Shown in pieces: positions 2 to 30,215 of a stretch of DNA of 64,000 bases. Made by a program: the position numbers and the translations under genes. Source of the DNA: an uncultured Gammaproteobacteria bacterium (GTDB lineage: Bacteria; Pseudomonadota; Gammaproteobacteria; UBA9214); the NCBI GenBank assembly GCA_963701455.1, contig CAVPAE010000006.1, positions 900,458-964,457 of the forward strand, given 5' to 3'. The notes under the pieces are model-generated. The model was not told the DNA's origin. It saw only the letters and a list, made by a program, of their open reading frames with translations, and made no database searches. The first letter of the stretch is position 1. Each line of letters starts with the position of its first letter.

Positions 2-286
2 GAGTTAGCTGCGCTGCTCGATCAGTCTGGAGAAATTCCTGAGGGAATAATCGAAGATGAACTACTTGCTGTTATTTACAGAGCGGATCCGGCTCTTGAT
101 GATGAATCCGGTCGATTAGTGCCAGGTATGAAAAACTCTGAAATATCTCTATCGCTTCATCTCACTGAACCAGGTCCAGATGGTATTTCACCGCTCGGTG
201 GAATTAGGGGGCAAGAGGCAATATTTTATTTGGTGCTAGAAGAACTTCAGAAGATTGGGTATGAGGTAGTAGATGGTCGCGTATAA
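2..286 (+). CDS. 3' end of a cassette ORF (hypothetical protein, truncated by the window edge)
   Basis: The open frame runs from the window start to TAA at 284-286. The stop lies inside the inverse core (GTATAAC) of the first attC. There is no recognisable similarity. Confidence 0.35.
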   Translation, partial: ELAALLDQSGEIPEGIIEDELLAVIYRADPALDDESGRLVPGMKNSEISLSLHLTEPGPDGISPLGGIRGQEAIFYLVLEELQKIGYEVVDGRV

Positions 287-370
287 CAAGTCGCCCAAGC
301 CGACGCGGGAAAGTATTGTGGCGCTTCGCGGAGGGTTTCTTGGCCGCGCGGCTTGGCTCAAACGTTAGGC
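281..370 (+). other. attC recombination site (cassette 1)
   Basis: Inverse core GTATAAC at 281-287. Core GTTAGGC at 364-370. Imperfect internal palindrome gcccaagccg...cggcttggct. Confidence 0.55.
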
Positions 371-375
371 ATCAT

Positions 376-780
376 ATGACTAGAGAACAAAGGGGCTTGG
401 TGCTCTACTGGATGTTCGGAGGAGTTGTTATTCTGGTTGGAGCTAGCACATTGCTTCTAGATATCAAATTTCAAGAATTAGCTTTATTGGGTGTTTCAGC
501 TTTTTATGGATTGGTTTCGCTGTTTCAGGACTTCTCATACTATCGAGGATACGGAAGCGGAAGACAGTTGCTTGGTAAATTTATTGAGTGTCATCCCAAA
601 TTAAAAGTATGGACAGTAGGCTACTGTGTGTTTGTATTACCGTACTTAATTTATAAGATTCAAGCTGATAATGAGGTTTCTGGAGTGTTGTACTTTTTGA
701 GCCTTCTACTACTGATCGGGCCATTCGTATATGTATCAGAGGTTGAGCGTTTTCATTCAATGGGCGACAAGAATGCCTAA
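376..780 (+). CDS. Cassette-encoded small integral membrane protein (134 aa, about 4 TM helices), function unknown
   Basis: ATG at 376. Hydrophobic segments include VLYWMFGGVVILVGASTLLL and VLYFLSLLLLIGPFVYV. The TAA stop lies in the attC inverse core. The ORF track starts at 316 from an upstream in-frame start. Confidence 0.55.
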   Translation: MTREQRGLVLYWMFGGVVILVGASTLLLDIKFQELALLGVSAFYGLVSLFQDFSYYRGYGSGRQLLGKFIECHPKLKVWTVGYCVFVLPYLIYKIQADNEVSGVLYFLSLLLLIGPFVYVSEVERFHSMGDKNA

Positions 781-835
781 CAAACGCCTCCAAGGCGACG
801 CGGCTCCGCCGCGCGCTTGAGGCGAGGCGTTAGGC
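775..835 (+). other. attC recombination site (cassette 2)
   Basis: GCCTAAC at 775-781 and GTTAGGC at 829-835. Dyad symmetry aacgcctc...gaggcgtt. A nearly identical copy occurs at 4739-4799. Confidence 0.7.
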
Positions 836-910
836 ATCATATGACTAGAGAACAAAGGGGCTTGGTGCTCTACTGGATGTTCGGAGGAGTTGTTATTCTG
901 GTTGGAGCTA

Positions 911-2065
911 GTGTAGGTCGTCATAAATAATGTAACATATAAGCTCTTGCGAAGTACTGAGGGCTTCCTATGCGAATTGCGGTAGAAATTGCTTTGTCTG
1001 AGGATGAAGTCGCTCACCTGAGCAAGTTGTCAAAATCACGTTCAGTATCCGTGCGGCTTGCAGAACGTTCACGAATTATTCTGCTGGCAGGGACGGGCAT
1101 GACCAATGAAGAGATTGGCGATGAACTGGGCATTACAAGACAGAAGGCGGGCCGCTGGCGAGTGCGCTACGCCGAAAGTGGAATCGACGGTATCAGCCAG
1201 GATGCATCTCGACCCGGACGAAAACCAAAGATCAGTTCACGCAAAGTCGCGAAAGTGATTAAGCTCACAACACAAACGACACCGGAAAATGCAACGCATT
1301 GGAGCCAACGTCTGATGGCAGAGAAGGTAGGCATCAGCATGTCATCAGTGGGGCGGATATGGAAAAGTCATGGTTTGAAACCGCACCGGGTGAGTACGTT
1401 CAAGCTATCAAATGATAAAGCGTTTGCTGAGAAGCTGGAGGCTATTGTCGGCCTTTATGTGTCCCCTCCAGAAAATGCCATCGTATTGAGTTGTGATGAA
1501 AAGAGTCAGATACAAGCATTGGATAGAACACAGCCTGGCTTGCCGATGAAGAAAGGCAAGGTGGCAACCATGACACATGACTATAAACGCAATGGCACCA
1601 CGACTCTGTTTGCCGCACTGAACACGTTAACAGGAGAAGTACTGGGTACCTGTACCCAGCGGCATCGACATCAGGAATGGCTGGTGTTTCTACGCAAGAT
1701 CAATCAATCCACGCCCAAGGATAAAGACATTCACATTATCTGTGATAACTATGCGACGCATAAACACCCAAAGGTGAAAAGCTGGTTGAGATATCACAAA
1801 CGTTTCCACGTCCATTTTACGCCGACCAGTGCATCGTGGCTAAACATGGTAGAACGATTCTTTCGTGAGTTGACTGATAAGCAGTTAAGACGGGGCGTGT
1901 TTAGCAGCGTGAAAGAACTTCAAGAGTCAGTGATGACATTCATTGAGAAGCACAATAAAGCCCCAGCACCTTACATCTGGACCAAGTCAGCAACCGACAT
2001 CCTGGAGAAAGTGAAGCGCGGGAGAGAAAATCTCAATAAGTTACAGACTGTTTGACGAGGTACAC
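911..2065 (+). mobile_element. IS630-family insertion sequence (copy A), flanked by TA
   Basis: Imperfect terminal inverted repeats gtgtaggtcgtc / gtgtacctcgtc. TA at 909-910 and at 2066-2067. The target gene has TA at the equivalent position (444-445). Confidence 0.7.
970..2055 (+). CDS. IS630-family DDE transposase
   Basis: 361 aa. N-terminal helix-turn-helix region. DDE region with the conserved blocks HDYKRNGTTTLFAALN, ICDNYATHK and SWLNMVERFF. Confidence 0.85.
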   Translation: MRIAVEIALSEDEVAHLSKLSKSRSVSVRLAERSRIILLAGTGMTNEEIGDELGITRQKAGRWRVRYAESGIDGISQDASRPGRKPKISSRKVAKVIKLTTQTTPENATHWSQRLMAEKVGISMSSVGRIWKSHGLKPHRVSTFKLSNDKAFAEKLEAIVGLYVSPPENAIVLSCDEKSQIQALDRTQPGLPMKKGKVATMTHDYKRNGTTTLFAALNTLTGEVLGTCTQRHRHQEWLVFLRKINQSTPKDKDIHIICDNYATHKHPKVKSWLRYHKRFHVHFTPTSASWLNMVERFFRELTDKQLRRGVFSSVKELQESVMTFIEKHNKAPAPYIWTKSATDILEKVKRGRENLNKLQTV

Positions 2066-2067
2066 TA

Positions 2068-3209
2068 GTGGTCCATGCGGTTAATTCTGTAACGCGTCCT
2101 TTGCGCGACCGACAGCGGCCAGGATATGACTGGCCGGTTTCGTCCACTTGAAGGGCTTGGCACTCTCGGCGTTGTGAGCCTTAATGAACCGTTCCAACTC
2201 GGCCTTCAGTTCTGGCACGCTGGTAAAGACACCCCGATACAAGGCACGCCGTTCCAGTTGCGCAAACCAGCCTTCCACCGCATTGAGCCAGGACGAACTG
2301 GTCGGTGTGAAATGCAGATGAATGCGCGGGCGTAAAGCCACCCACTCCTGAACTGCCTGCGTTTTGTGGGCACTCAGGTTGTCTACAATAATATGTAATT
2401 GCCGATCCGCCGGGGTGCGTCGATCGAGCAGCTTTAGGAACGACAGAAATGCCTTGCTGTTCGTGCGCTCTGCCACTTTGCCGATCACTTTTCCGGTCAA
2501 TGTGTTGAATGCCGCATACAAGCTGGTGGTGCCGTTCCTTTTATAGTCGTGGGTGCGACTACCGATTCGGCTGGGATTGAGCGGCAATCCCGGTTGGGTA
2601 CGATCCAACGCTTGAATCTGCGTCTTCTCATCCACACTGAGCACCACGGCGTTTTCCGGCGGGTTCATGTAAAGGCCGATAATATCGACGACCTTCTCGG
2701 CAAACTGTGGATCGTTGCTGATCTTGAACGTCTTCAAGCGATGCGGCCGCAGGTCTGCCGCCTTCCAGATCTGGCGAACCTGCCAGGGCGTGACATCCGC
2801 ATAGCTCGCCATCAACTCAATGCTCCAGTGCGTCGCTTCCTGGGGGACCCGTTTGGTCGTCAAAAACAAAACCTTTTCCACTGTCTTCTTGTCGATGACT
2901 GTCGGGCGTCCGCTGCGCGCCCGCTCCAGCAGGCCGTCAATCCCTTCGGCTTCAAATCGATTTCGCCAGCGATGTACCGTCTTTGCCGTGGTTCTCTGAG
3001 CGGTGGCCACTTGTGTCGGTGTCATCCCCTCACTGAGCTGAAGGATGATCTTCGCCCGCATGATCTGACCATGCGGGAGCGTGGTCGAACGGCACCACTC
3101 GTTCAGCACTGCTGCATCCTTGTCGGACAATTGAAAGGTCTTGGGTAAGCGCATGCCATAGTGTATATGCCCTGAACTATTAATAACAATATTTTACGCA
3201 TGAACCACT
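2068..3209 (-). mobile_element. IS630-family insertion sequence (copy B, a different member), inserted at the TA adjacent to copy A
   Basis: Terminal inverted repeats gtggtccatgcggttaat / gtggttcatgcgtaaaat. TA at 2066-2067 and at 3210-3211. The interrupted gene resumes at 3212. Confidence 0.7.
2081..3154 (-). CDS. IS630-family DDE transposase
   Basis: 357 aa, paralogous to 970..2055. Conserved blocks HDYKRNGTTSLYAAFN, VDNLSAHK and SWLNAVEGWF. Confidence 0.85.
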   Translation of the reverse strand: MRLPKTFQLSDKDAAVLNEWCRSTTLPHGQIMRAKIILQLSEGMTPTQVATAQRTTAKTVHRWRNRFEAEGIDGLLERARSGRPTVIDKKTVEKVLFLTTKRVPQEATHWSIELMASYADVTPWQVRQIWKAADLRPHRLKTFKISNDPQFAEKVVDIIGLYMNPPENAVVLSVDEKTQIQALDRTQPGLPLNPSRIGSRTHDYKRNGTTSLYAAFNTLTGKVIGKVAERTNSKAFLSFLKLLDRRTPADRQLHIIVDNLSAHKTQAVQEWVALRPRIHLHFTPTSSSWLNAVEGWFAQLERRALYRGVFTSVPELKAELERFIKAHNAESAKPFKWTKPASHILAAVGRAKDALQN

Positions 3210-3332
3210 AGCACATTGCTTCTAGATATCAAATTTCAAGAATTAGCTTTATTGGGTGTTTCAGCTTTTTATGGATTGGTTTCGCTGTTTCAGGGTAATC
3301 ATCCCTTTTTTAACCGGCACCAAAAGTAGACG

Positions 3333-4157
3333 TCATGCTGCTACCAGCATGTGTTTTGGTGGAAAGCCACCATTGGCCTTGTTGGGCCGTTCATGATTGT
3401 AGAACCAGAGCCACTGCGTAGCATAGTCCTGAACCTCTTCGATTGAGTCGAACTGGTACTGGCTCAGCCAGCTGTAGCGAACCGTTCGGTTGTAGCGTTC
3501 GACATAGGCATTCTGTTGTGGCTTGCCTGGCTGGATGAATTCCAGCTGGATGTCGTGCCTGCCCGCCCATACTTCCAGGTCCTGACTGATGAATTCCGGG
3601 CCGTTGTCACAACGTAGCCGGCCAGGTTTGCCGCGCCATTCGATGATCTGATCCAGCGCCCGGATCACACGTACGGCGGGCAGCGAGAAATCGGCTTCAA
3701 TGCCCAGCCCCTCACGGTTGAAGTCATCCAGCACATTGAACAACCGGAAGGTACGACCATCCGTCAGCTGATCATGCATGAAGTCCATGGACCAAGTCGC
3801 ATTCGGCGCTTCGGGCACTGTCAGTGGCACAGGTTTTTCACGCTGCATTCGTCGCTTGGGCTTGATTCGCAGGTTCAATTCCAACTCGCAGTAAATCCGA
3901 CGGATACGCTTGTGGTTCCAGGCAAAACCCTTGACGTTACGCAGATAGTCCCGGCACAGACCGAAGCCCCAGTCCTTCTGATTATGCGTCAACCGGACCA
4001 GCCAGTCGGCAATCTCGGCATTCTCATCGGACAGGATCGGTTGGTAACGATAGCAGGTCTCGCTGATGCCAAAGGCCACGCAAACCAGGCGAACACTGGC
4101 ACCGTATGTCGATGCCGCTTCCTTGGCCATCTCCTTGCGTCGAGATGGCCTCACCAC
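3333..4157 (-). CDS. IS3-family transposase OrfB (integrase catalytic core)
   Basis: 274 aa with a DDE/rve-type core ([10 protein letters not shown]..., ...CDNGPEFIS...). Confidence 0.85.
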
Positions 4158-4417
4158 TTTTTTGCCAGCGCCTCCTGGACCATCTCCGCCTTGAGACGCT
4201 CATCGGCATACATCTTCTTCAGCCGCCGGTTCTCGTCCTCCAGCTCCTTCAGGCGCTTCATCAGTGAGGCATCCATCCCTCCGAACTTGGCGCGCCACTT
4301 GTAAAATGCCGCGCTGCTCATGCCGTGTTCCCGGCACAGCGCCGGCACCGGCGTCCCGGCCTCGGCCTGCTTCAGAATCGCCAGGATCTGGCTGTCACTA
4401 TAACGTGATGTTTTCAT
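4151..4417 (-). CDS. IS3-family transposase OrfA (helix-turn-helix)
   Basis: 88 aa with a helix-turn-helix and leucine zipper. It overlaps OrfB at the AAAAAAG heptamer (minus strand, about 4152-4160), consistent with a -1 programmed frameshift. Confidence 0.8.
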
Positions 4418-4738
4418 GCAGAATCTCCTCTTAACCTATTATGAGAAAATTCTACTTCTGATGTCAGCTAGTTTTGGGGATGATTACCTCAGGACTTCTC
4501 ATACTATCGAGGATACGGAAGCGGAAGACAGTTGCTTGGTAAATTTATTGAGTGTCATCCCAAATTAAAAGTATGGACAGTAGGCTACTGTGTGTTTGTA
4601 TTACCGTACTTAATTTATAAGATTCAAGCTGATAATGAGGTTTCTGGAGTGTTGTACTTTTTGAGCCTTCTACTACTGATCGGGCTATTCGTATATGTAT
4701 CAGAGGTTGAGCGTTTTCATTCAATGGGCGACAAGAAT

Positions 4739-4799
4739 GCCTAACAAACGCCTCCAAGGCGACGCGGCTCCGCCGCGCGCTTGAGGCGAGGCGTTATGT
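4739..4799 (+). other. attC recombination site (cassette 3, duplicate of the 775-835 site; core GTTATGT)
   Basis: Identical to attC 2 apart from the last bases of the core, which derive from the downstream cassette. Confidence 0.65.
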
Positions 4800-4834
4800 T
4801 TAAAAAACAAAAATATTGGAGCCTCTAGATTTAA

Positions 4835-5488
4835 ATGGATACAAATACATGGTTAATAACTGTTTTTGGCATATATATAGCGAGTGTTGTCACGTACTCA
4901 ATAGTATATTTCCGGTTGTATGAAAAAGATCACTCTCGTTTTCTATTTAATGAAAAGGCCATGGAGAAGCAGCATAACAACCTTATCGATAAATTAAATA
5001 AAACCACTTCAGATTCCATCAAAAACAGCCCGTTACTTTTAGATGTTTTAGGTTATTTAGAAAAGCATCAGGAAATTAAAAGTATTAAAAATAAATGGAT
5101 CCTACTTGAATCTGGTAATAGCTTTAAATACAGCAGGGATGCCTTTGCACATCAAGGAGGTGCGCATGTTTTGACCACCTTAAAAATAAGAGATGAAAAA
5201 GAAGAATTGATTTTTGACCACAGATGGAACGACGTAGATGGGTTAATAAAGATAATTTCGGAACACATGTCTAGCACAGAGGCGCTAATTAAATCTTTAA
5301 GTCATAAAATAAGCACATCTGAAAACCAGTATCCTGATTTTTGGTCATATTTTGACTTTTTATATTTTAGTGTAATTAGCCAAACCACTGTTGGATATGG
5401 TGATATTCTCCCGAACTCTACTTTGATAAGGAAAGTCGTAATCACTCTAGTAATGCTAGGCCTACTTACTATTTGTTGTCATAATTAA
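4835..5488 (+). CDS. Cassette-encoded 2-TM potassium-channel-like protein (selectivity filter TTVGYGD) with a ~135-aa domain inserted between TM1 and the pore helix
   Basis: 217 aa. TM1 is residues about 6-27. The pore helix and filter are FSVISQTTVGYGDILP. The C-terminal TM is VVITLVMLGLLTICC. Confidence 0.55.
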   Translation: MDTNTWLITVFGIYIASVVTYSIVYFRLYEKDHSRFLFNEKAMEKQHNNLIDKLNKTTSDSIKNSPLLLDVLGYLEKHQEIKSIKNKWILLESGNSFKYSRDAFAHQGGAHVLTTLKIRDEKEELIFDHRWNDVDGLIKIISEHMSSTEALIKSLSHKISTSENQYPDFWSYFDFLYFSVISQTTVGYGDILPNSTLIRKVVITLVMLGLLTICCHN

Positions 5489-5507
5489 TCTGTCTTTTCA
5501 GGCGCAA

Positions 5508-5580
5508 ACATAACAAATCGTTCATGTGGGAATTTTGTTACGCTGCGCTTCACAAAATCCCCATAACTCAAACGTTAGGC
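5508..5580 (+). other. attC recombination site (cassette 4; degenerate inverse core ACATAAC, core GTTAGGC)
   Basis: Core GTTAGGC at 5574-5580 is preceded by ctcaaac as in attC 1. Internal pairing aacaaa/tttgtt. Confidence 0.45.
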
Positions 5581-5606
5581 AGCTACCATGAGCCATAAAG
5601 GGATAC

Positions 5607-5801
5607 ATGAACTTTAACGGACTACAAAAGACTTATTGGGAACAGCAAATTGCGCGTGTAGAACGTGTTCGCGAGCAGATAGCTTCCCGACTGAATATCA
5701 GTCCCGGTCGCACCATCCCCGACACAACAGATCTTGCTATAGGCAACAGGTCGCAGATTGTCTGCAGCCATAATGTTCATCGATATTTGTGGATTCTCTA
5801 A
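5607..5801 (+). CDS. Small ORF at the start of cassette 5 (64 aa). It may be an independent small protein or the frameshifted N-terminus of the downstream cyclase.
   Basis: ATG with a good ribosome-binding site (aaaggga). It overlaps the cyclase ORF by 44 nt in another frame. The cyclase frame has a stop only 6 codons before its start. Confidence 0.25.
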   Translation: MNFNGLQKTYWEQQIARVERVREQIASRLNISPGRTIPDTTDLAIGNRSQIVCSHNVHRYLWIL

Positions 5802-6360
5802 TCGTCCATCTGAGACAGAGGCAGAACAGGCAGCGTTAATGGCTGCGCTCAATCTGTTTTTTTCTGAAATGATTAAAATTGCGGAAGACTATGGCGGGAC
5901 TGTAGAAAAGAATACCGGTGATGGTTTAATGGCCTATTTTGAGGATGGAACTTCAACACCGCCAGAAAATGGGCCACACAGAGCAGTCGCGTGTGCCTTA
6001 ACCATGATGGCAGCTTCAGAGCATTTGCTGAATCCAATTCTTGCGAGATCGGACATCGACCCTATTCAGTTTCGCATATGCATTGATTCGGGCAACGTGA
6101 CAATAGCCAAGCTTGGTGCAGCTAGACGATTCAATGCGGTAGTGGCAATAGGTACAACTGCTAATGTTGCATCAAAGATGCTCGCAACTGCCAAAGCCGG
6201 ACAAATACTTCTAGGCGAGAATGTAAAAGCAAAACTGCCTTTAGAATGGCAGGTTTCTTGGGTGAAATTGCATACGTACAAGACAGGGTGGGTATTCCGT
6301 ACTAACGAACAACCCTATTCCTTTTATCTGTTCGACGCACATTGGGCAAGGTTACTGTAA
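5758..6360 (+). CDS. Class III nucleotidyl (adenylyl/guanylyl-type) cyclase catalytic domain, stand-alone (~200 aa)
   Basis: CHD (cyclase homology domain) motifs: RRLSAAIMFIDICGFS (metal-binding Asp), EKNTGDGLMAYF (second Asp), FRICIDSGNVTIAKLG, GTTANVASKM. Start is TTG at 5758 or ATG at 5773. Confidence 0.7.
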   Translation: MSAAIMFIDICGFSNRPSETEAEQAALMAALNLFFSEMIKIAEDYGGTVEKNTGDGLMAYFEDGTSTPPENGPHRAVACALTMMAASEHLLNPILARSDIDPIQFRICIDSGNVTIAKLGAARRFNAVVAIGTTANVASKMLATAKAGQILLGENVKAKLPLEWQVSWVKLHTYKTGWVFRTNEQPYSFYLFDAHWARLL

Positions 6361-7001
6361 TGGGAAATGACTCTAATGAATTGGCCTCGAAAAGCCAAAT
6401 TCCAATTCCTGCTGAGCTTGAGGGTAAAAACCTGGGGACTCCTGCCCGGCAAGGGAAAAGCGGTGATGTTAGTGGGGTTGTCGCAGAATCAGAGCAATCA
6501 GATACGAAAAAAATAGATCATGTGGATAAATATGCCAAGCATCTCCACTCGTACATTCGGGAATATATATCCGCAGCTGATAAAAAGGCTTCATTTGTGT
6601 TTGCAATTGGAGCTGCACTGTTGGTGTATCTTTATGAAAAGAATCTTGCCGTAACCTGGGTCAAGGCTGTAAATACATGGACCCTTAATGAAGGGATCAT
6701 CTTTTTAGCAATTATAGGCCTCGCTATATCGTGCCTTCTTTCAATTTTGGTTGTTGTCCCTTTTCTTAAAGGCTCAAGGAGAGGGTTTGTTTTTTGGGAC
6801 TCCATCGCTGAATTTAGCAACTCTTCTGAGTTTTCGAATGAGCTATTTAAGCTGGGCGACTCACAGCTAACGGAAGAAATACTACGGCACTCTTACGAGC
6901 TCTCGCGCGTGTGCAAACGGAAATATCTATTACTGAACTGGTCATTAAGAGTTGGTGCAGTAGGCGCAATATGTACGTTGCTTGTTCTTGTAAAAGGGTG
7001 A
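6342..7001 (+). CDS. Multi-TM membrane protein co-encoded with the cyclase; candidate membrane-disrupting effector (SLATT-like topology)
   Basis: 219 aa. Overlaps the cyclase ORF by 19 nt. N-terminal soluble/low-complexity region, then TM helices FVFAIGAALLVYLY and IIFLAIIGLAISCLLSILVVVPFL, a ~70-aa soluble segment, and a C-terminal TM VGAVGAICTLLVLV. Confidence 0.55.
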   Translation: MGKVTVMGNDSNELASKSQIPIPAELEGKNLGTPARQGKSGDVSGVVAESEQSDTKKIDHVDKYAKHLHSYIREYISAADKKASFVFAIGAALLVYLYEKNLAVTWVKAVNTWTLNEGIIFLAIIGLAISCLLSILVVVPFLKGSRRGFVFWDSIAEFSNSSEFSNELFKLGDSQLTEEILRHSYELSRVCKRKYLLLNWSLRVGAVGAICTLLVLVKG

Positions 7002-7010
7002 TAAAACGCT

Positions 7011-7065
7011 GCCTAACAAGGCGCCCCAGCCGGACGCTTCGCGCCGCTGGGCTTGGTCGTTAGGC
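7011..7065 (+). other. attC recombination site (cassette 5)
   Basis: GCCTAAC at 7011-7017 and GTTAGGC at 7059-7065. Internal dyad gcgccccagc...gctgggcttggtc. Confidence 0.7.
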
Positions 7066-7118
7066 ATAACGAGTTAAAGTGCCAGTATATTTATAGATAG
7101 AAAAGGGCTATTACACTT

Positions 7119-8003
7119 ATGAAATACGAAAACCCTAATGAATTACGCAAAGCTTGGCTGTCAAATGATAAAACATGGTCGCAGGCTCGTAAAAAAGAGT
7201 GGGGACGAATTAATGAAAAAATTAAGAGTCGCGCGTTCCAGTTTGTTAGAGCTCATGACAATATCAAAAGACTGAAAAGCTATTTTTTGACTGGCTTTCC
7301 GCCAGGCCCGGTTCCTAATGACGAACTAGATCTGCATAAATATTATTTTCGACCCCTTGCAGGGATTCCAGGAAATATCCTCTTTGAATGCTGGCTTTCA
7401 CCCGATCACTCTAAAGAATATTTCTCTGAAGTTATTGAAAGAAACCCGGACAACCTTGTAGATAGCCGTAACAGATTTAGAAAAATGGTGCGGGATTTTT
7501 TTCCTGAAAAAGAGGGGACACTATTTGACGGGCTCGAATCGGATTTCTATCTATTGTTGGGTGGGAACAGGTGTAGAAAAGATATCGAATATCCTGATAT
7601 TGATGACGATGAATATAAAAAAAGATGTCACACGCACTTTAATGAATGCCTGCCAATTATTAATCGGGTACTTTTTGCTGAGCCTGAAGACGTGAATACT
7701 AAAGATATTGCCCATTTGATGGTGGCAGAATTCATTGATAGTTATACAGGTTCATTTGAATTAGTAGTTAACCATGAATATGAAGAAGGGCTAACGTTCA
7801 AAGACTATGGTCTTGATGAAATCCGTCGTAGCCAGCTCGAACGCTGTAGTGAAATACTAAAGGCGGAAGATAAATTACACCCTCGACAGATTGAAATTGC
7901 AACGCAGCTTTTGAGCTCAATAAATGAGTTGAAATTACATGAAGAACTTGAAAAAGTGATCTCACCATATTTGATAGACACCATAAATTCGCATGATGCC
8001 TAA
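7119..8003 (+). CDS. Cassette-encoded hypothetical soluble protein (294 aa)
   Basis: Clean ORF with a ribosome-binding site. Its TAA stop lies inside the next attC inverse core. No recognisable motifs. Confidence 0.55.
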   Translation: MKYENPNELRKAWLSNDKTWSQARKKEWGRINEKIKSRAFQFVRAHDNIKRLKSYFLTGFPPGPVPNDELDLHKYYFRPLAGIPGNILFECWLSPDHSKEYFSEVIERNPDNLVDSRNRFRKMVRDFFPEKEGTLFDGLESDFYLLLGGNRCRKDIEYPDIDDDEYKKRCHTHFNECLPIINRVLFAEPEDVNTKDIAHLMVAEFIDSYTGSFELVVNHEYEEGLTFKDYGLDEIRRSQLERCSEILKAEDKLHPRQIEIATQLLSSINELKLHEELEKVISPYLIDTINSHDA

Positions 8004-8060
8004 CAAGGCAAATTCAGCTGACGCGCCAAAGGCGCGCGCGGCTGATTTGCGGCGTTAGAG
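7998..8060 (+). other. attC recombination site (cassette 6; core GTTAGAG)
   Basis: GCCTAAC at 7998-8004. Dyad gctgacgcgcc...ggcgcgcgcggctga. Confidence 0.6.
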
Positions 8061-8112
8061 GGCTGAATATAACGTCTTGACGTTATGGCGACATAGTGCT
8101 ATATATTACCCC

Positions 8113-8346
8113 ATGAGCAGTGATCCCAAACGAGCAACCGTATATTTTGATCCAGCGCTTCACCGCGCACTCCGGGTCAAAGCAGCAGAGACTGAGCGAT
8201 CCATATCGGACCTGGTCAATGAGGCTGTGCAATTAAGCCTTGTTGAGGATGCCGAGGACCTTGCTGCTTTCGAAGACAGGGTGAACGAGCCCAGCTTGCC
8301 GTATGAAGATGTCGTTAAAGATCTGAAACGACGTGGAAAAATATAA
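8113..8346 (+). CDS. Type II antitoxin, ribbon-helix-helix (RelB/ParD-like)
   Basis: RATVYFDPALHRALRVKAAETERSISDLVNEAV is an RHH antitoxin signature. It overlaps the downstream toxin gene by 14 nt. Confidence 0.7.
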   Translation: MSSDPKRATVYFDPALHRALRVKAAETERSISDLVNEAVQLSLVEDAEDLAAFEDRVNEPSLPYEDVVKDLKRRGKI

Positions 8347-8602
8347 GGTATCGATTAAGCGTTCTGCGGTGAAAGAAATTGAAGCCATACCGCAAAAGAA
8401 AGAACGGCAACGCATAATCCGTCGCATTGGCCAACTGGCTAATGATCCACGCCCCCCAGGTTCAAAGAAGCTATCCGGTCATGATAAATATCGGATACGC
8501 CAAGGTTCTTATCGTATTGTATACAGCATCGAAGGTAATGAGCTTGTCGTCGTTGTAGTGAAGGTGGGTCATCGGAAGGATGTTTACCGTGGCGCCCTCT
8601 AA
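8333..8602 (+). CDS. Type II toxin, RelE/ParE family
   Basis: 89 aa. KLSGHDKYRIRQGSYRIVYSIEGNELVVVVVKVGHRKDVY is typical of the RelE/ParE fold. GTG start. Confidence 0.8.
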   Translation: MEKYKVSIKRSAVKEIEAIPQKKERQRIIRRIGQLANDPRPPGSKKLSGHDKYRIRQGSYRIVYSIEGNELVVVVVKVGHRKDVYRGAL

Positions 8603-8656
8603 CAACTCAGCCCAGTCCGACGCGCTGACGCGCGCTGCTGGCTTCAGCCGTTAGGT
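8597..8656 (+). other. attC recombination site (cassette 7; core GTTAGGT)
   Basis: Inverse core CTCTAAC overlaps the relE stop. Dyad cagcccagtccgacgcg...cgcgctgctggcttcag. Confidence 0.6.
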
Positions 8657-8660
8657 GCTT

Positions 8661-8984
8661 ATGAAAATCACCAGCTTACTTGCTTCAATTATTCTGGGAT
8701 TAACCCTGGCTGGTTGCTCGGGCTCAAGCGACATTACGAATGCAGCAGAAGTACAAGAAGAACTTGATGACTTGTTACAGGTTGGAGCTTCAAAAGAGTA
8801 TATTGAAGCCACGCTTGTGCGTCTGAATATTGGCCATTCGTTTGATAAGTATGCTTCACGATATCAAGGCATTATCAGGAATGCCGGCGGTCCGATGGAT
8901 CATGCGGTAGTGGTATATGTATACATGGATGAAAACGACAAGCTCACAAGGGTGGAAACCCATGATTCATATACAGGGCCATAA
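8661..8984 (+). CDS. Cassette-encoded small lipoprotein (signal peptide plus LAGC lipobox)
   Basis: MKITSLLASIILGLTLAGCSG. A possible degenerate last attC (ACACAAC...GTTAGGA) lies at about 8993-9068. Confidence 0.5.
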   Translation: MKITSLLASIILGLTLAGCSGSSDITNAAEVQEELDDLLQVGASKEYIEATLVRLNIGHSFDKYASRYQGIIRNAGGPMDHAVVVYVYMDENDKLTRVETHDSYTGP

Positions 8985-9290
8985 TGTTGATTACACAACC
9001 TGCGTTTTCCAGGGCTTGCTTTCACTCGGCCGATTATGTGTGCGTAAGATGAAAAATACCGGTTAGGAACTTGACTCGAAAAATTAGTTGAATCGTTTAA
9101 GGAGCACAGTTAATTGTGCCCGGACTGTTCACTCCAATCGATGCCCGTCCCTCGCGCAATTGAGTTCAATCGCTAGACCTCGTTAAAAATACTAATTGTG
9201 TCAGTACGAATTAATTTCTAGTATTGGCGATTATTCAGGCTGACACATTTTATAAACGTTCACACTATTTCATCCAGAAGGGAAATAAAC

Positions 9291-9749
9291 ATGGGAATGA
9301 TTAACGAGTTCAAGCAATTTGCAATGCGCGGCAACGTGGTCGATATGGCCGTGGGTATCATTATCGGCGGTGCGTTTGGAACGATCGTCAAAAGCCTGGT
9401 TTCGGATGTCATGATGCCGCCGCTTGGATTGTTGCTGGGTGGTGTGGACTTTTCCGATCTGTTTATCACCCTGAAGGAAGGCGCCACTGCCGGGCCGTAT
9501 GCGACCCTGGCGGCGGCGCAGGCGGCGGGCGCGGTGACTATTGGCTACGGCGTGTTTATGAACGCCGTGATCAGTTTCCTGATTGTTGCATTCGCTGTTT
9601 TCCTGCTCATCAAGGGTATTAACAAGCTGCAGAGCGAAAAGGAAGAACCGGCCGAGCCGACCACGAAGGATTGTCCGAAATGCTTTACTGCCATTCCGAT
9701 TAAGGCGACGCGTTGTCCGAACTGCACTTCGGAAATCGGGTCTGCATAA
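9291..9749 (+). CDS. mscL: Large-conductance mechanosensitive channel MscL with a C-terminal CxxC...CxxC extension
   Basis: [30 protein letters not shown] is the MscL N-terminus. GC rises to core-genome level here. Confidence 0.85.
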
Positions 9750-9779: not shown

Positions 9780-9925
9780 AAGTCTCGAATCGTCATTCCG
9801 GCGCATGCCGGACAAAAGCGCAAGGCGCGTTGAACGCCCGGAGGGTGGGCGAAGCGAGTCATCCAGGTAAATCGACAAGCTGGACCCCGGCCTTCGCCGG
9901 GGTGACGACTTATTCAGAGTTACCT
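9780..9925. repeat. Dispersed palindromic repeat element (cgtcattccggcg...ctggaccccggccttcgccggggtgacga family)
   Basis: Related copies at 35275-35375 and 62925-62995. Confidence 0.5.
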
Positions 9926-14449: not shown

Positions 14450-15886
14450 GTGAAGATGGTTTTACAGCGCAACCTCAGCGACAGGCTGTTCACCCCCGTC
14501 GATGCCGCTTCACTGGCGGTGTTTCGCATCGGCTTCGGCTGCATCATGCTGGTCGAGATGTTGCGCTATTTCCACTTCGACTGGATCCGGCGCTACTACG
14601 TCACCCCGGAGTTTCACTTCAGCTACTACGGTTTCGACTGGGTGCAACCCCTGGGCGAAACCGGCATGGTCCTGCTTTTCGCGGGGCTTGCGCTGCTGGC
14701 GTTTTTCATCGCCATCGGCTATCTCTACCGCTTCAGCATTATCGCTTTTACGCTGGGCTTTACCTGGGTCTTTCTGCTTGACCAGACCCAGTACCTGAAT
14801 CACTTCTATCTCGTCATCCTGCTCGGGATTTTGTTGAGCGTGCTGCCGGCGCAGCGCGCCTTCTCCGTCGATGCCCGGCTGCAGCGCAGGCAGGGCACGG
14901 CGGAGGTGCCCGCGTGGGCGGTCTGGGTGCTGCGGGCCCAGTTCGAGGTGATGTATCTGTACGCGGGTATCGTCAAGCTGAATCCGGACTGGCTGCGCCT
15001 CGAACCCATGGCGATCTGGATGACACGCGGAGCCGAACTGCCGTTGATCGGCCCGTTGATGACGGAGCCGCTGGCCGTGGCCGCGGCCAGCTATGGCGTG
15101 ATTGTCCTGCACCTGGTCGGCGCGCCCCTGCTGTTGTGGCGGCGTACCCGGCTCGGTGTGTTTCTCATCTACGCGGCCTTTCATACCACCAACCACTTCA
15201 GCTTCAACATCGGTATCTTTCCCTGGCTCACGCTGTTCGGCACCCTGATCTTTTTCGAGCCTGACTGGCCGCGGCGTGTCTGGCGGGTGCTGACCAAGCG
15301 CGCGGCAGTGGCAACGCAGGCGGATGCCGGTGATGGCGGGAACGGTGTTGCGGCGGCAACGCCGGCTGTGGCGATGGGCAGGCGCCTGGTCATCGGCCTG
15401 CTGGCCGCATGGTTTGCCTTCCAGGTGCTGGTGCCGCTGCGGCATCTGCTGTACCCGGGCAATGTCAGCTGGACGGAGGAGGGACACCGTTTCGCCTGGC
15501 AAATGATGTTGCGCGAAAAGGGAGGCACCGCGAAATTCAGCGTGACCGACCCGGCAAGCGGCCGCGTCTGGCATATCAACCTGCCGGATTACCTGACCCC
15601 GCGCCAGGCCCGGAAAATGGCGACGCGCCCCGACATGCTGCTGCAGTTTGCCCACCACCTGCAACGGGTCTGGGAACGGGAAAAGAACCTGCCGGGCGTC
15701 GAGGTGCGCGTGACGACCGCCATCTCGCTGAACGGTCGCGCGCCGGTGCTGCTGCTGGACCCGGCAAGGGACCTGGCCGCCGTGCCGCGCGACCTGCGTG
15801 CTGCGGACTGGATCCTGCCGCTGACCGAGCCGCTGCCTGCGATTACCTTCAGGCGCCTGTTTCAAGACACAATCGCGGTCAGGTGA
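14450..15886 (+). CDS. HTTM domain (vitamin-K-carboxylase-like) integral membrane protein
   Basis: LAVFRIGFGCIMLVE...DQTQYLNHFYL. Multi-TM N-terminal half. Confidence 0.6.
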   Translation: MKMVLQRNLSDRLFTPVDAASLAVFRIGFGCIMLVEMLRYFHFDWIRRYYVTPEFHFSYYGFDWVQPLGETGMVLLFAGLALLAFFIAIGYLYRFSIIAFTLGFTWVFLLDQTQYLNHFYLVILLGILLSVLPAQRAFSVDARLQRRQGTAEVPAWAVWVLRAQFEVMYLYAGIVKLNPDWLRLEPMAIWMTRGAELPLIGPLMTEPLAVAAASYGVIVLHLVGAPLLLWRRTRLGVFLIYAAFHTTNHFSFNIGIFPWLTLFGTLIFFEPDWPRRVWRVLTKRAAVATQADAGDGGNGVAAATPAVAMGRRLVIGLLAAWFAFQVLVPLRHLLYPGNVSWTEEGHRFAWQMMLREKGGTAKFSVTDPASGRVWHINLPDYLTPRQARKMATRPDMLLQFAHHLQRVWEREKNLPGVEVRVTTAISLNGRAPVLLLDPARDLAAVPRDLRAADWILPLTEPLPAITFRRLFQDTIAVR

Positions 15887-16795
15887 CCGCTCCTGCACGT
15901 AATAGAAGCACCTGTAGGAGTACCCTGAAGGGCATAAACGCCGCCCTTCGGCGCGATTGTTTGAGGCGCCCATCGCGGTCAGGAGACCGCTCCTGCACGT
16001 AATAGAAGCGCCTGCAGGAGCGCCGTCCTTCGGCGCGATTGCTTGAGGCAGGCAATCGCGGTCAGAAGACCGCTCCTGCACGTAATCAAGAAGCACCTGT
16101 AGGAGCGCCGCCCTTCGGCGCGATTGCTTGAGGTCAAGCCCATCGCGGTCAGAAGACCGCTCCTGCACGTAATAGAAGCACCTGCAGGAGCGCCGTCCTT
16201 CGGCGCGATTGCTTGAGGCGCCCATCGCGGTCAGAAGACCGCTCCTGCACGTAATAGAAGCACCTGCAGGAGCGCCGTCCTTCGGCGCGATTGCTTGAGG
16301 CAGCCAATCGCGGTCAGGTGACCGCTCCTGCACGTAATAGAAGCACCTGCAGGAGCGCCGTCCTTCGGCGCGATTGCTTGAGGCAGGCAATCGCGGTCAG
16401 GTGACCGCTCCTGCACGTAATAGAAGCGCCTGCAGGAGCGCCGTCCTTCGGCGCGATTGCTTGAGGCAGGCAATCGCGGTCAGAAGACCGCTCCTGCACG
16501 TAATAGAAGCGCCTGCAGGAGCGCCGTCCTTCGGCGCGATTGCTTGAGGTGCCCATCGCGGTCAGGTGACCGCTCCTGCACGTAATAGAAGCGCCTGCAG
16601 GAGCGCCGTCCTTCGGCGCGATTGCTTGAGGCGGCAATCGCGGTCAGGTGACCGCTCCTACACGTAATAGAAGCACCTGTAGGAGCGCCGTCCTTCGGCG
16701 CGATTGCTTGAGGCAGGCAATCGCGGTCAGAAGACCGCTCCTACACCACCAGGTGCACCTGTAGGAGCGGCCTTTGGCCGCGATCGCTTTGCTGG
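15872..16795. repeat. Tandem array of about 11 copies of an ~82-bp palindromic repeat unit
   Basis: Unit: atcgcggtcagRRgaccgctcctgcacgtaatagaagcRcctgYaggagcgccgYccttcggcgcgattgcttgagg plus about 8 variable bases. Each unit contains two hairpins. Confidence 0.85.
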
Positions 16796-16809
16796 TTGCC
16801 TGTTGAGAA

Positions 16810-17217
16810 CTAGAAGCGGTCGCTTCCCGTGCGGCCCAGGTTGTTGATCCTGCGCCTGCCCAGCAGTTTCAGGAGCAGGTTGCGCAGTGCGCGCAGTACC
16901 GGGTACAGCAGGCGCGACAGTCGCGCCGACCTGAACAGCCAGTAGTTCAGACGGTTGAAGATGCCGGAGCGGGTGCTGAGCAGCGCCAGGGCGTGTATGG
17001 CGTCGGCGCCGTAGTAGAGCTGGTCATCCAGCTTGAGGACCATCCCCTGGTCGATATCCAGACCGTGTGCGGTAATCTCCTGCAGGATGTCACTGTGCTC
17101 GCGGGCGTTGACGATCTGGAGTTCGCCGGCGGCGGCACGGATACGCACCGCCTGGCAGTAGTTGTGGCACACGGGGCACTCGCGGTCGTAAACCAGTAGC
17201 ACCTGCTTGCCTGGCAT
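16810..17217 (-). CDS. DCC1-like thiol-disulfide oxidoreductase family protein (DUF393)
   Basis: VYDRECPVCHNYCQ motif near the N-terminus, 135 aa. This family often neighbours HTTM proteins. Confidence 0.6.
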   Translation of the reverse strand: MPGKQVLLVYDRECPVCHNYCQAVRIRAAAGELQIVNAREHSDILQEITAHGLDIDQGMVLKLDDQLYYGADAIHALALLSTRSGIFNRLNYWLFRSARLSRLLYPVLRALRNLLLKLLGRRRINNLGRTGSDRF

Positions 17218-29214: not shown

Positions 29215-29460
29215 TTGCTATCGCGGTCAGTACCCAAAGAACGGGCATAAAGAGATCGCTTCTAAACCTGCTAGTTTAACTGTAGGAGCGCCGCCCTTCG
29301 GCGCGATTGTTTGAGTTCGCAATCGCGGTCAGTACCCAAAGAACGGGCATAAAAAGACCGCTCCTACACCTGCTAGCCCACCTGTAGGAGCGCCGTCCTT
29401 CGGCGCGATTGTTTGAGGCCGCAATCGCGGTCAGGAGACCGCTCCTACAGCAGGTCCGCG
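29215..29460. repeat. 3 tandem copies of the 82-bp-family palindromic repeat (variant modules)
   Basis: atcgcggtcag...ctgtaggagcgccgcccttcggcgcgattgtttgag units. Some carry a tacccaaagaacgggcataaagag module. Confidence 0.7.
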
Positions 29461-30215
29461 GCGCTCAGTTGCTGGCCGGTGATGCCCTGGCTGTCGGGGC
29501 CGAGCAGGAACAGGAATGGTTTGACGACGTCCGCCGGTTCCGGCAGTGAATTGCGGTCTTCATAGGGATAGGCCATGCGCCGCAACGCGGTGCGCACCGG
29601 GCCCGGGTCCAGGCTGTTAACCCGTATCGGCGTATTCGCTTCGAGTTCATCCGCCAGTATCTGCATGAAGCCCTCGGCGCCGGCCTTGGAGACGGCATAA
29701 GCGCCCCAGTAGGCCTTGCCGTGGCGGCCAGCGGCGTCGGCGGCAAACACGATCGAGGCGTCCCGGCTTTGCTGCAGCAGGCCGAGACAGGCCATGGTCA
29801 GCAGGTAGGGCGCATTGAGATTGACCTGCAGCGTCTCGAACCAGAGTTCGTGCTCGAAATTGGCGAACGGCACCAGGGCGCCGAGGTGTGCCGCGTTGTG
29901 CACCAGCCCGTCGAGGTGGCTGAATTCCTTTTCGATGGTTTCGGCCAGCGTGGCGTAGTCATCCGGCGTGGCGCCCTTGAGATCCAGTGGATACAGGGCG
30001 GGCTCGGGATGACCGGCGGCGGTGATTTCGTCGTAGGCCTGCTCCAGTGCACGCACGTCACGGTCCAGCAGGATGACGCTGGCGCCATGCGCGGCGCAGG
30101 CACCGGCGACGGCGCGGCCAATGCCGTTGGCGGCGCCGGTGATCAGGATGACCCGGTCGTGCAGCAGTTCGGGGGCGGGGTTCCAGTCATGCAGGGTGTC
30201 GGGGATGGCGTTCAT
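29445..30215 (-). CDS. SDR-family oxidoreductase, YciK-like
   Basis: ILITGAANGIGRAVA (TGxxxGxG), YAVSKAG (YxxxK). Confidence 0.75.
   Translation of the reverse strand: MNAIPDTLHDWNPAPELLHDRVILITGAANGIGRAVAGACAAHGASVILLDRDVRALEQAYDEITAAGHPEPALYPLDLKGATPDDYATLAETIEKEFSHLDGLVHNAAHLGALVPFANFEHELWFETLQVNLNAPYLLTMACLGLLQQSRDASIVFAADAAGRHGKAYWGAYAVSKAGAEGFMQILADELEANTPIRVNSLDPGPVRTALRRMAYPYEDRNSLPEPADVVKPFLFLLGPDSQGITGQQLSAADLL

What the first reader, a model, noticed from the sequence alone, without database searches (positions are those of the whole stretch)
4835..5488. Cassette-encoded 2-TM K+ channel-like protein with a TTVGYGD filter and a ~135-aa insertion between TM1 and the pore helix
The canonical K+ selectivity filter (TTVGYGD) is preceded by a pore helix (FWSYFDFLYFSVIS) and followed by a single TM helix, with one N-terminal TM helix. 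This is KcsA/Kcv-like topology. It differs in having a large hydrophilic domain where the short turret normally sits, and no cytoplasmic C-terminal domain. Minimal channels on mobile cassettes are unusual. They could serve in defence (abortive-infection-type ion leak) or in ion homeostasis.
Basis: partly seen in the sequence, partly recalled or inferred. Interest (0 to 1): 0.55.

Follow-up and report, generated by a model that had tools for sequence, protein, structure and literature searches.

The report
Integron-cassette potassium channel with periplasmic insert
This gene encodes a small potassium-channel subunit with a folded domain of unknown function on its outer face; it belongs to a widespread, undescribed bacterial family that is often carried on integron cassettes, and this copy has a frameshift near its end.

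Summary
ORF 4835-5488 (+) encodes 217 aa: one N-terminal TM helix, a ~136-aa hydrophilic insert, a pore helix, the TTVGYGD filter and a short inner helix with no C-terminal domain. Pfam Ion_trans_2 aligns the filter to the P-loop (E=1.2e-12).

It is a true integron cassette (4794-5574). A covariance model finds seven same-strand attC sites, all in the low-GC first 8.7 kb.

The insert defines a family rather than an oddity. At least 292 clusters at 50% identity share the architecture, across many phyla and almost only in MAGs. The pore is nearly invariant; the insert is 11-21% identical yet models confidently (pLDDT 88-89) as an alpha-beta4-alpha domain. It has no match in Pfam, the PDB or BFVD. 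Basic C-terminal tails place it in the periplasm.

There is no conserved partner gene, no full-length phage copy and no PADLOC match. Several homologues are also cassette-borne.

New finding: the window allele carries a 1-nt insertion (~5461). This replaces the consensus last 16 residues with 8, and a 96%-conserved TM2 Gln is also lost. The neighbouring Pycsar cyclase is frameshifted too.

The physiological role is untested. K+ selectivity argues against a simple leak-type abortive-infection effector.

The parts
4736..4802 (+). attC of the preceding cassette. Its R' box GTTATGT (4793-4799) marks the 5' boundary of the channel cassette, with crossover between G4793 and T4794.
   Evidence: CM R1 hit 73.9 bits, E=5.8e-16; sequence read
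4794..5574 (+). The integron gene cassette (781 bp), made of a short 5' leader, the channel ORF and its own attC. It is low in GC (~40%) against a ~62% GC chromosome.
   Evidence: Boundaries taken from the R' boxes; composition
4835..5488 (+). Channel ORF, 217 aa, as annotated
   Evidence: identical to P0001, one NCBI/ENA contig of 966,777 bp
4841..4927 (+). TM1, the outer helix (aa 3-31). The family-conserved F-x-F-N motif (F36, F38) follows it.
   Evidence: AF2 DSSP; conservation; sub-threshold Ion_trans alignment places residue 4 onward at the S5 region
4928..5335 (+). Turret insert (aa ~32-167): a folded alpha-beta4-alpha domain, inferred to be periplasmic. It is hypervariable in sequence and has no known homologue.
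   Evidence: AF2 full-length and domain-only models, pLDDT 88.3 and 89.0; Foldseek against PDB and BFVD and an HMM against PDB sequences all negative; no Pfam domain in 29 of 29 members
5336..5404 (+). Pore helix and selectivity filter (aa 168-190); TTVGYGD lies at 5384-5404
   Evidence: Pfam Ion_trans_2; invariant D174 F175 Y177 F178 S179 T185 G187 G189 D190
5405..5485 (+). Conserved ILPNST extracellular loop and inner helix TM2 (aa 191-217). G209 corresponds to the KcsA G99 hinge. L205 (codon 5447-5449, CTA) replaces a Gln that is 96% conserved in the family.
5459..5462 (+). Frameshift site: GGCC in the window versus GG-T in the closest relative, i.e. one extra base
   Evidence: DNA alignment A3, column ~663
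5463..5513 (+). Ancestral-frame C-terminus YLLFVVIINLSFQAQT*, still encoded out of frame. Its stop codon lies inside the attC R'' box.
   Evidence: translation; family HMM gives 202.6 bits repaired versus 185.9 bits annotated
5505..5583 (+). The cassette's own attC (R'' ACATAAC ... R' GTTAGGC at 5574-5580). It is AT-rich (42% GC) and longer than the array's other attC sites.
   Evidence: CM R1 55.6 bits, E=2.1e-11; alignment and covariation

Best explanation
The gene encodes one subunit of a K+-selective channel of the 2TM/P (KcsA/Kir/Kcv-type) class, presumed to be tetrameric. It belongs to a previously undescribed, phylogenetically broad family. In this family the short extracellular turret between the outer helix and the pore helix is replaced by a folded ~85-200-aa alpha-beta4-alpha domain facing the periplasm, and no cytoplasmic domain is present.

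Shown here: the pore module is nearly invariant, carrying the filter T-T-V-G-Y-G-D, the aromatic pore helix and the hinge glycine. The insert folds confidently but evolves fast. The C-terminus is short and, where longer, basic, so it is cytoplasmic. The gene sits on a self-contained, apparently promoterless integron cassette at the distal end of a chromosomal array in an uncultured gammaproteobacterium. Other family members are also cassette-borne.

Inferred: four subunits form a K+ pore. With no cytoplasmic sensor and an inner helix that ends at or just past the bundle-crossing level, gating must come from the filter and/or from the four periplasmic domains around the outer mouth. These could act as a cap, a sensor or a ligand-binding domain. 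The conserved F-x-F-N and ILPNST segments probably couple the domain to the filter. The channel would then work as a single-gene accessory K+ conductance for K+ uptake or release, or for setting membrane potential, under particular external conditions.

The allele in this window carries a 1-nt insertion that rewrites and shortens the last third of the inner helix, and it has lost a conserved TM2 Gln. It may therefore be impaired, and at this distal, IS-interrupted array position it is probably poorly expressed.
For: Channel identity: Ion_trans_2 at E=1.2e-12 with the filter on the P-loop, and 29 of 29 family members match. PDB P-loop alignments agree. Filter and pore-helix residues are invariant across 148 members. 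G209 lies 19 residues after D190, matching KcsA D80 to G99 (sequence compared with my knowledge of KcsA).

Family: 292 representatives at E<=1e-30, full length. Of 152 members, 141 have a single upstream TM; inserts are 83-206 aa and the median tail is 35 aa.

Fold: pLDDT 88.3 and 89.0.

Topology: K/R-rich C-terminal extensions.

Cassette: 7 attC sites, all on the + strand and only in 278-8659, with 8 of 17 stem pairs showing compensatory changes. Homologues are bracketed by or abut attC sites in L001, L017 and L015.

Stand-alone unit: no conserved neighbour in 29 loci.

Frameshift.

No + strand promoter-like site in the cassette leader.
Against: No experiment supports K+ conduction, tetramerisation or periplasmic placement of the insert. 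No multimer model could be run. The charge bias immediately flanking TM1 is weak: 1.6 K+R before versus 2.0 after. The Pfam match omits the outer-helix part of the profile (positions 1-19), so the equivalence of TM1 to the outer helix rests on the AF2 model and a sub-threshold Ion_trans alignment (22.9 bits against a cut-off of 25). The physiological role is inference only. The window allele may be non-functional.
Confidence: 0.7

Rival explanations
1. Single-gene anti-phage or superinfection-exclusion module. The hypervariable periplasmic domain senses a phage component or envelope damage and opens the pore, and the K+ flux aborts infection or blocks DNA entry.
For: The adjacent cassettes are a Pycsar system (PycC 2.5e-19, PycTM 3.1e-26) and a ParE/RHH toxin-antitoxin pair. 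Homologues in L002 and L014 lie 62 nt downstream of an AIPR gene on the same strand. Pooled neighbours include R-M, AbiEi, AbiU, PIN, transposases and integrases. The fast-evolving external domain beside an invariant pore fits an arms-race pattern. Integron cassettes are known reservoirs of defence genes (titles and abstracts listed).
Against: There is no significant PADLOC match (best E=0.0025 at 14.9 bits, over coiled-coil-like sequence). Neighbourhoods are heterogeneous and include many housekeeping genes. The closest relative lies between priA and argS. No full-length copy occurs in 2.9 M viral contigs. A strictly K+-selective pore clamps the membrane near E_K rather than collapsing it, which makes it a poor suicide effector; known membrane effectors are not ion-selective (inference from established biophysics).
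Confidence: 0.15
2. In this genome the gene is a decaying, functionally dead cassette: the protein is not made, or it does not conduct.
For: A 1-nt insertion replaces 16 consensus C-terminal residues with 8, costing 16.7 bits against the family HMM. The 96%-conserved TM2 Gln is Leu. The tail of 27 residues after GYGD is the shortest complete one among 152 members. The neighbouring PycC is also frameshifted. The cassette is distal, separated from upstream by three IS elements, and has no promoter-like site. The closest relative, L004, is itself frameshifted.
Against: 23 of 25 highly conserved positions, including the whole filter and pore helix, are intact. The new tail, LLTICCHN, is still hydrophobic and AF2 models it as a continuous helix. 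The viral Kcv channels function with similarly short inner helices (my knowledge). The extra base could be a sequencing error. This rival concerns this allele only, not the family.
Confidence: 0.35
3. Inverted topology, as in GluR0 and iGluR pores. The P-loop enters from the cytoplasm and the insert is a cytoplasmic sensor domain.
For: The 15 residues after TM1 carry slightly more K/R (2.0) than the 15 before it (1.6). The insert has no conserved cysteine pairs.
Against: Extended C-terminal tails are strongly basic and low-complexity, and N-terminal extensions are also basic. The loop after GYGD is almost devoid of K/R, at 0.17 per 8 aa. Members with extra N-terminal TMs mostly add them in pairs. 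Inverted K-channel pores are otherwise known only with flanking ligand-binding domains, which are absent here.
Confidence: 0.07

Closest known systems
KcsA / generic prokaryotic 2TM K+ channels (Pfam Ion_trans_2, PF07885)
   Same: One outer helix, a pore helix, the TxGYGD filter and an inner helix with a hinge glycine at the same spacing. The match is significant.
   Different: KcsA has a ~10-residue turret and a cytoplasmic C-terminal helical bundle. Here the turret is a ~136-aa folded domain and no C-terminal domain exists. The outer-helix part of the Pfam profile is not aligned.
Chlorovirus Kcv-type minimal channels (Kcv PBCV-1 94 aa, ATCV-1 82 aa)
   Same: No cytoplasmic domains, a very short inner helix ending near the bundle-crossing level, and carriage on a mobile genome.
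   Different: Kcv channels have a short turret and are encoded by eukaryotic viruses. This family is bacterial, is not found full-length in viral contigs and is twice the size because of the insert. The only structural hit in BFVD is the pore of an Aureococcus virus channel at E=1.8e-3.
K2P (two-pore-domain) channels' extracellular cap
   Same: An extra structured, largely helical extracellular element inserted between the first outer helix and the first pore helix. NCBI's pipeline even labels one relative (NNJ83982.1) a 'two pore domain potassium channel family protein'.
   Different: There is only one P-loop per subunit here, so that label is a misnomer. The K2P cap is a ~55-aa helical hairpin without a beta-sheet, and no sequence or fold similarity of the insert to K2P caps was found.
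Membrane effectors of defence systems (PycTM, CBASS 2TM effectors, CARF-fused tetrameric pores such as Chp1)
   Same: Small membrane proteins found on mobile or defence loci, with a PycTM in the next cassette. A tetrameric pore that its authors discuss alongside potassium channels was recently described as a CRISPR effector (abstract listed).
   Different: Those effectors are activated by a cytoplasmic nucleotide-binding domain or a partner cyclase and are not K+-selective. This family has no cytoplasmic domain, no partner and a strictly conserved K+ filter.

Membership tests
K+ channel pore family (Ion_trans_2 / 2TM-P architecture) | P-loop with the TxGYG(D) signature aligned to the family profile above the curated threshold | tested here: met
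   48 bits against a cut-off of 22.5, E=1.2e-12, residues 167-213 on profile positions 20-66; 29 of 29 family members match
K+ channel pore family (Ion_trans_2 / 2TM-P architecture) | A pore helix immediately N-terminal to the filter, and an inner TM helix with a hinge glycine after it | tested here: met
   AF2 helix 172-184, filter, then helix 196-216; G209 lies 19 residues after D190, as in KcsA D80 to G99
K+ channel pore family (Ion_trans_2 / 2TM-P architecture) | An outer TM helix preceding the pore helix | tested here: inconclusive
   A single TM (aa 3-31) exists but lies ~136 aa upstream. Pfam profile positions 1-19 are not aligned, and Ion_trans aligns TM1 to S5 only below threshold (22.9 against 25 bits). 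Its packing could not be checked without a tetramer model.
K+ channel pore family (Ion_trans_2 / 2TM-P architecture) | Tetrameric assembly and K+-selective conduction | not testable with these tools
   No multimer prediction and no experiment were available
Integron gene cassette | An ORF followed by an attC site with a conserved R''/R' core (…TAAC / GTTRRRY) and an imperfect palindromic stem | tested here: met
   attC at 5505-5583, 55.6 bits, E=2.1e-11. The core is invariant and 8 of 17 stem pairs show compensatory changes across the 7 sites.
Integron gene cassette | Membership of an array of co-oriented attC-bounded units | tested here: met
   7 attC hits, all on the + strand and all within 278-8659, with none in the remaining 55 kb
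Integron gene cassette | An integron integrase (intI) and attI at the head of the array | not testable with these tools
   The array runs off the 5' end of the window, and the contig could not be retrieved
Kcv-like viral minimal K+ channels | A protein of about 80-125 aa with a short turret, encoded by a virus | tested here: not met
   The protein is 217 aa with a 136-aa insert. No full-length relative occurs in viral contigs, and PHROG hits cover the pore only.
K2P channels | Two P-loops per subunit | tested here: not met
   A single Ion_trans_2 stretch and a single filter motif
Known anti-phage defence systems (PADLOC-DB v2) | A significant match to a defence-system protein model, or a conserved partner from such a system | tested here: not met
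   Best match E=0.0025 at 14.9 bits; no conserved neighbour

The most novel reading that the evidence does not exclude
The family is a new class of externally gated K+ channel. A fast-evolving periplasmic domain built into the turret senses an extracellular cue, such as a phage tail or receptor-binding protein, a bacteriocin, a neighbour-cell signal or an ion, and directly controls the selectivity-filter gate. This would give a one-gene sensor-effector that integrons trade between phyla for defence or for electrical and ionic signalling.
Probability: 0.12. Interest if true: 0.8.

Novelty: new variant of a known kind. Interest (0 to 1): 0.45.

Why it matters
Prokaryotic K+ channels have served as structural templates for the field. 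Nearly all characterised ones are gated from the cytoplasmic side, through RCK, CNBD or voltage-sensor domains or a C-terminal bundle.

This family of at least ~300 sequence clusters has an invariant K+ pore, no cytoplasmic domain and a confidently folded, structurally unmatched domain in the turret. It would be a natural system for studying control of the filter gate from outside the cell.

Its repeated capture by integrons in unrelated phyla, as a single self-sufficient gene, suggests a conditionally useful accessory trait. It also adds an ion channel to the small set of cassette functions that can be named.

For this particular locus the significance is limited, because the allele is frameshifted and probably silent.

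Tried and rejected
1. Retrieving the source contig to find intI and attI: four exact-protein look-ups failed. The genome-contig scan did not contain this genome.

2. A crude regex and ungapped-stem attC finder missed all but one site because of extrahelical bases. I replaced it with a covariance model.

4. An insert-only profile against PDB sequences gave a best E of 0.068, to designed helical proteins, which I rejected.

5. The PADLOC hit CARF1--CARF_HEPN (E=0.0025, 14.9 bits) and the Pfam hits FOP_dimer, DPM3 and Lipl32 (E>0.02) fall below any threshold, over helical low-information sequence; I rejected them.

6. Search for a conserved partner gene by all-against-all BLAST of neighbours in 29 loci: none found. 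The only recurrent sets come from L002 and L014, which are the same syntenic locus.

7. Literature: no paper in the held library links integron cassettes with K+ channels or describes a turret-insert prokaryotic channel.

8. Phage origin: rejected.

9. Host identification beyond 'uncultured gammaproteobacterium' failed; the best hits to a flanking GGDEF-EAL protein are metagenomic at 89% identity or less.

Full report
**1. The observation**

ORF 4835-5488 (+) is real: ATG start, 217 aa. It reads as follows:
- an N-terminal hydrophobic helix (aa 3-31);
- a long hydrophilic stretch;
- DFWSYFDFLYFSVISQ-TTVGYGD (the filter is aa 184-190, nt 5384-5404);
- ILPNSTLIRKVVITLVMLGLLTICCHN, then the stop codon.

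Pfam Ion_trans_2 matches at 48 bits (curated cut-off 22.5), E=1.2e-12. Residues 167-213 align to profile positions 20-66 of 79, which are the pore helix, filter and inner helix. NCBIfam K-channel models and PDB sequences (TOK, K2P, KvAP, NaK-type) align the same stretch.

**2. Cassette context**

The first ~9 kb of the window has 40-55% GC, against ~62% for the remaining 55 kb.

I aligned seven candidate attC sites read from the sequence. They share an invariant TAAC…GTTA core, and 8 of 17 stem pairs keep pairing through changes on both sides.

A covariance model built from them finds exactly these seven sites in the window: 278-373, 772-838, 4736-4802, 5505-5583, 7009-7068, 7995-8063 and 8595-8659. 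All lie on the + strand, and there are none elsewhere.

The channel cassette runs from T4794 (after the G of R' GTTATGT) to G5574 (the first base of R' GTTAGGC), 781 bp in all. Its attC has 42% GC and spans 73 nt from R'' to R' (the CM hit is 79 nt), whereas its neighbours have 61-67% GC and are mostly ~60-70 nt. Together with the gene's low GC, this suggests capture from a different, AT-rich cassette pool.

No + strand promoter-like site lies in the 40-nt leader.

The integrase would lie upstream of the window and could not be reached. The array ends near 9.07 kb, just before a chromosomal mscL-like gene at 9291-9749; I identified that gene by eye only.

The host is an uncultured gammaproteobacterium. 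A flanking, intact 784-aa GGDEF-EAL protein has only metagenomic relatives, at 89% identity or less.

**3. The other cassettes**

- 5575-7066 is a Pycsar system. PycC matches PADLOC at 2.5e-19 and Pfam Guanylate_cyc at 2e-13. PycTM matches PADLOC at 3.1e-26 and Pfam PF18967.
- 7119-8003 is an unknown 294-aa ORF.
- 8113-8602 is an RHH antitoxin with a ParE toxin.
- 8655-8984 is a small ORF with a lipoprotein-like N-terminus, judged by eye.
- The cassette upstream of the channel is a duplicate of cassette 370-835. It is broken by two IS630-like elements (DDE_3 transposases at 970-2055 + and 2081-3154 -) and by an IS3-family element at 3295-4488.

**4. A family, not an oddity**

A word-indexed search returned one identical protein (P0001, a single 966,777-bp NCBI/ENA contig). 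It also returned about 25 full-length relatives of 218-291 aa at 26-32% identity.

A profile of 29 sequences, searched against 1.84 billion representatives, gives 292 proteins at E<=1e-30. Those among the 150 listed match essentially full length.

Among 152 retrieved members:
- 141 have exactly one TM upstream of the filter;
- the insert measures 83-206 aa, median ~158;
- the tail after GYGD has a median of 35 aa.

In GTDB species representatives, full-length relatives occur in Acidobacteriota, Bacteroidota, Gemmatimonadota, Chlorobiaceae, Gammaproteobacteria, Desulfobacterota and Dormibacterota. Nearly all are MAGs from soil, sediment or water.

NCBI's pipeline names the few deposited relatives 'potassium channel family protein', and in one case, wrongly, 'two pore domain potassium channel family protein'.

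I found no paper on this architecture or on K-channel cassettes.

**5. Anatomy and conservation**

Across 148 members:
- D174, F175, Y177, S179, T185, G187, G189, D190 and R199 are invariant;
- Y25, F36, F38, W170, F178, Q183, V186, I191, L192, P193, N194, V202 and a TM2 Gln are conserved at 94% or more.

By contrast the insert is only 11-21% identical to the window's insert. Apart from F-x-F at its start, it has no column conserved at 85% or more.

Even so, AlphaFold2 models it with confidence from only 21-29 sequences. The full-length model reaches pLDDT 88.3 and pTM 0.72; the insert alone reaches pLDDT 89.0 and pTM 0.74. The layout is a ~40-residue helix, a four-strand antiparallel sheet, then a ~25-30-residue helix.

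Two isolated three-residue strands, 36-38 (FLF) and 191-193 (ILP, just after the filter), are predicted. I infer that they pair, tying the start of the insert to the outer mouth.

The insert has no detectable relative:
- no Pfam domain in any of 29 members;
- no PDB sequence relative, best E=0.068;
- no Foldseek match in the PDB with either model, best E 0.05-0.1, TM 0.32 or less, ~50 aligned residues of generic sheet;
- nothing in BFVD apart from a pore-only match to an Aureococcus virus channel at E=1.8e-3.

**6. Topology**

Charge immediately flanking TM1 is uninformative: 1.6 K+R before versus 2.0 after.

Members with longer C-termini, however, carry strongly basic, low-complexity tails, such as KRRKLE…, …KKRSRSRPHRRR and …RRRATTQRRIRNEARR. 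Long N-terminal extensions are basic too. The eight residues after GYGD average only 0.17 K+R.

This supports N-in/C-in, the canonical K-channel orientation. The insert therefore lies in the periplasm at the position of the turret. An inverted, GluR0-like arrangement is unlikely but not excluded.

**7. The window allele is frameshifted**

The closest relative (L004, a Methylophagaceae MAG, 65% aa identity) aligns at the DNA level through and beyond the window's stop codon. The window has one extra base, GGCC (5459-5462) versus GG-T.

- In the annotated frame the protein ends G209-LLTICCHN*.
- Without the extra base it would read G209-YLLFVVIINLSFQAQT*.

The second reading fits the family consensus IGYxxLxVxINLxF. 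Its stop falls inside the attC R'' box; in the cassette-borne homologue in L001 the stop likewise lies within the attC hit.

A family HMM built without the window sequence scores the annotated protein at 185.9 bits and the repaired one at 202.6 bits. The window's tail of 27 residues after GYGD is the shortest complete one in the family. The 96%-conserved TM2 Gln is Leu here (CTA versus CAA).

The neighbouring PycC is also split. Joining the upstream out-of-frame ORF (5607-5801) to it raises the best PADLOC score from 62.9 to 82.7 bits and extends the match from profile position 43 to position 9.

Two frameshifts in two adjacent distal cassettes, beside intact IS, TA and chromosomal genes, suggest real decay of unexpressed cassettes. 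Assembly error cannot be ruled out without reads. L004 is itself frameshifted in an A-run and is not in an array; it lies between priA-like and argS-like genes, identified by eye.

**8. Function**

*What the evidence supports.* This is a K+-selective 2TM/P pore subunit. Selection has held the filter, the pore helix and the hinge glycine fixed over a very wide phylogenetic span. D190 to G209 has the same 19-residue spacing as KcsA D80 to G99.

The inner helix in the family ends about 28-35 residues after GYGD, at or just past the level of the KcsA bundle crossing, and there is no cytoplasmic domain. Control of opening therefore most plausibly resides at the filter and in the four periplasmic domains that must surround the outer mouth. 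That last step is inference.

*The gene acts alone.* No neighbour is conserved across 29 loci.

*It recurs in integron arrays.* L001 has about 17 attC hits, two of which bracket the homologue. L017 has five attC hits, the last directly upstream of the gene. L015 has an attC directly downstream. L013 has a weak upstream hit. My attC model is narrow, so this count is a lower bound.

*The defence idea.* The support is anecdotal: Pycsar and a toxin-antitoxin pair next door here; AIPR immediately upstream in L002 and L014; and scattered R-M, Abi, PIN and transposase neighbours.

Several points count against it:
- heterogeneous contexts that are often housekeeping;
- no PADLOC model match;
- no phage-borne full-length copies;
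- the biophysical point that a K+-selective pore pulls the membrane toward E_K rather than collapsing it, so it is a weak suicide effector.

I therefore favour an accessory, environmentally gated K+ conductance. I keep defence or exclusion as the main rival for the family, and pseudogenisation as the main rival for this allele.

**9. Comparison and novelty**

It works like a KcsA/Kcv-type channel and passes the Ion_trans_2 membership test for the pore. It is not a Kcv-like viral channel, given its size, insert and host, and it is not a K2P channel, because it has one P-loop.

The turret-inserted folded domain is functionally reminiscent of the K2P cap but unrelated to it. Combined with the absence of any cytoplasmic module, it is to my knowledge undescribed, and the held literature has nothing on it.

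I rate it a new variant of a known kind. Interest is moderate: the family is worth a structural and electrophysiological look, but this particular copy is probably a decaying, silent cassette.

Noticed in passing
window 5575-7066: The next cassette is a complete two-gene Pycsar anti-phage system, PycC cyclase plus PycTM effector, carried as one integron cassette. The cyclase is split by a frameshift near 5750-5765 (ORF 5607-5801 in one frame, ORF 5758-6360 in another). Joining them raises the PADLOC PycC score from 62.9 to 82.7 bits.
   Followed up: yes
window 343-4802: Cassette 370-835 (a 134-154-aa membrane-like ORF with no family match) is duplicated in tandem. The second copy is interrupted by two IS630-like elements in opposite orientation (970-2055 +, 2081-3154 -) and by an IS3-family element (3295-4488, orfA/orfB on the - strand). 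The IS3 element is flanked by a 5-bp overlap of the repeats (525-529), which looks like a target-site duplication.
   Followed up: partly
window 8113-8602: One cassette carries an RHH-antitoxin / ParE-toxin pair with overlapping genes. This is typical of stabilising TA cassettes in chromosomal integrons.
   Followed up: partly
window 8660-9290: The last cassette (ORF 8655-8984, with a lipoprotein-like N-terminus) has no detectable attC after it. The array ends next to an mscL-like gene (9291-9749), so a mechanosensitive channel gene lies right beside a cassette array that holds a K+ channel. This is probably coincidence.
   Followed up: no
window 15850-16830, 29220-29470, 31010-31390, 37770-37860: Dense tandem arrays of an ~82-nt GC-rich palindromic repeat (…GCGCCGTCCTTCGGCGCGATTG…ATCGCGGTCAG.AGACCGCTCCT…), up to ~10 copies in a row in the chromosomal part. 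They look like REP/BIME-type intergenic elements. I did not characterise them.
   Followed up: no
window 9838-9917, 35290-35369, 62906-62985: Three copies (76-86% identical) of an 80-nt element ending …CTGGACCCCGGCCTTCGCCGGGGTGACGA.TT.TTCAG. This is a second dispersed repeat family of unknown nature.
   Followed up: no
L004 1160-1836 (Methylophagaceae MAG JBJPGE010000103.1): The closest relative of the channel (65% aa identity) is not in an integron. It sits as an AT-rich single-gene insertion between priA-like and argS-like genes, and it is frameshifted in an A-run (this is a 2.5x coverage MAG).
   Followed up: partly
L002 4277-6795 and L014 (syntenic, Acidobacteriaceae): A family member lies 62 nt downstream of, and co-oriented with, an AIPR (abortive-infection phage resistance, PF10592) gene. 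This is the only suggestive two-gene arrangement seen, and it occurs in a single lineage.
   Followed up: partly
L001 2369-12402 (ENA ERZ25039533 contig_28683): A large cassette array with about 17 co-oriented attC hits in 10 kb. It carries a family member together with PIN, ankyrin-repeat, zinc-ribbon and TonB_C/TPR cassettes and an IS4 element. The attC sites there are ~90 nt, a different class from those in the window.
   Followed up: partly
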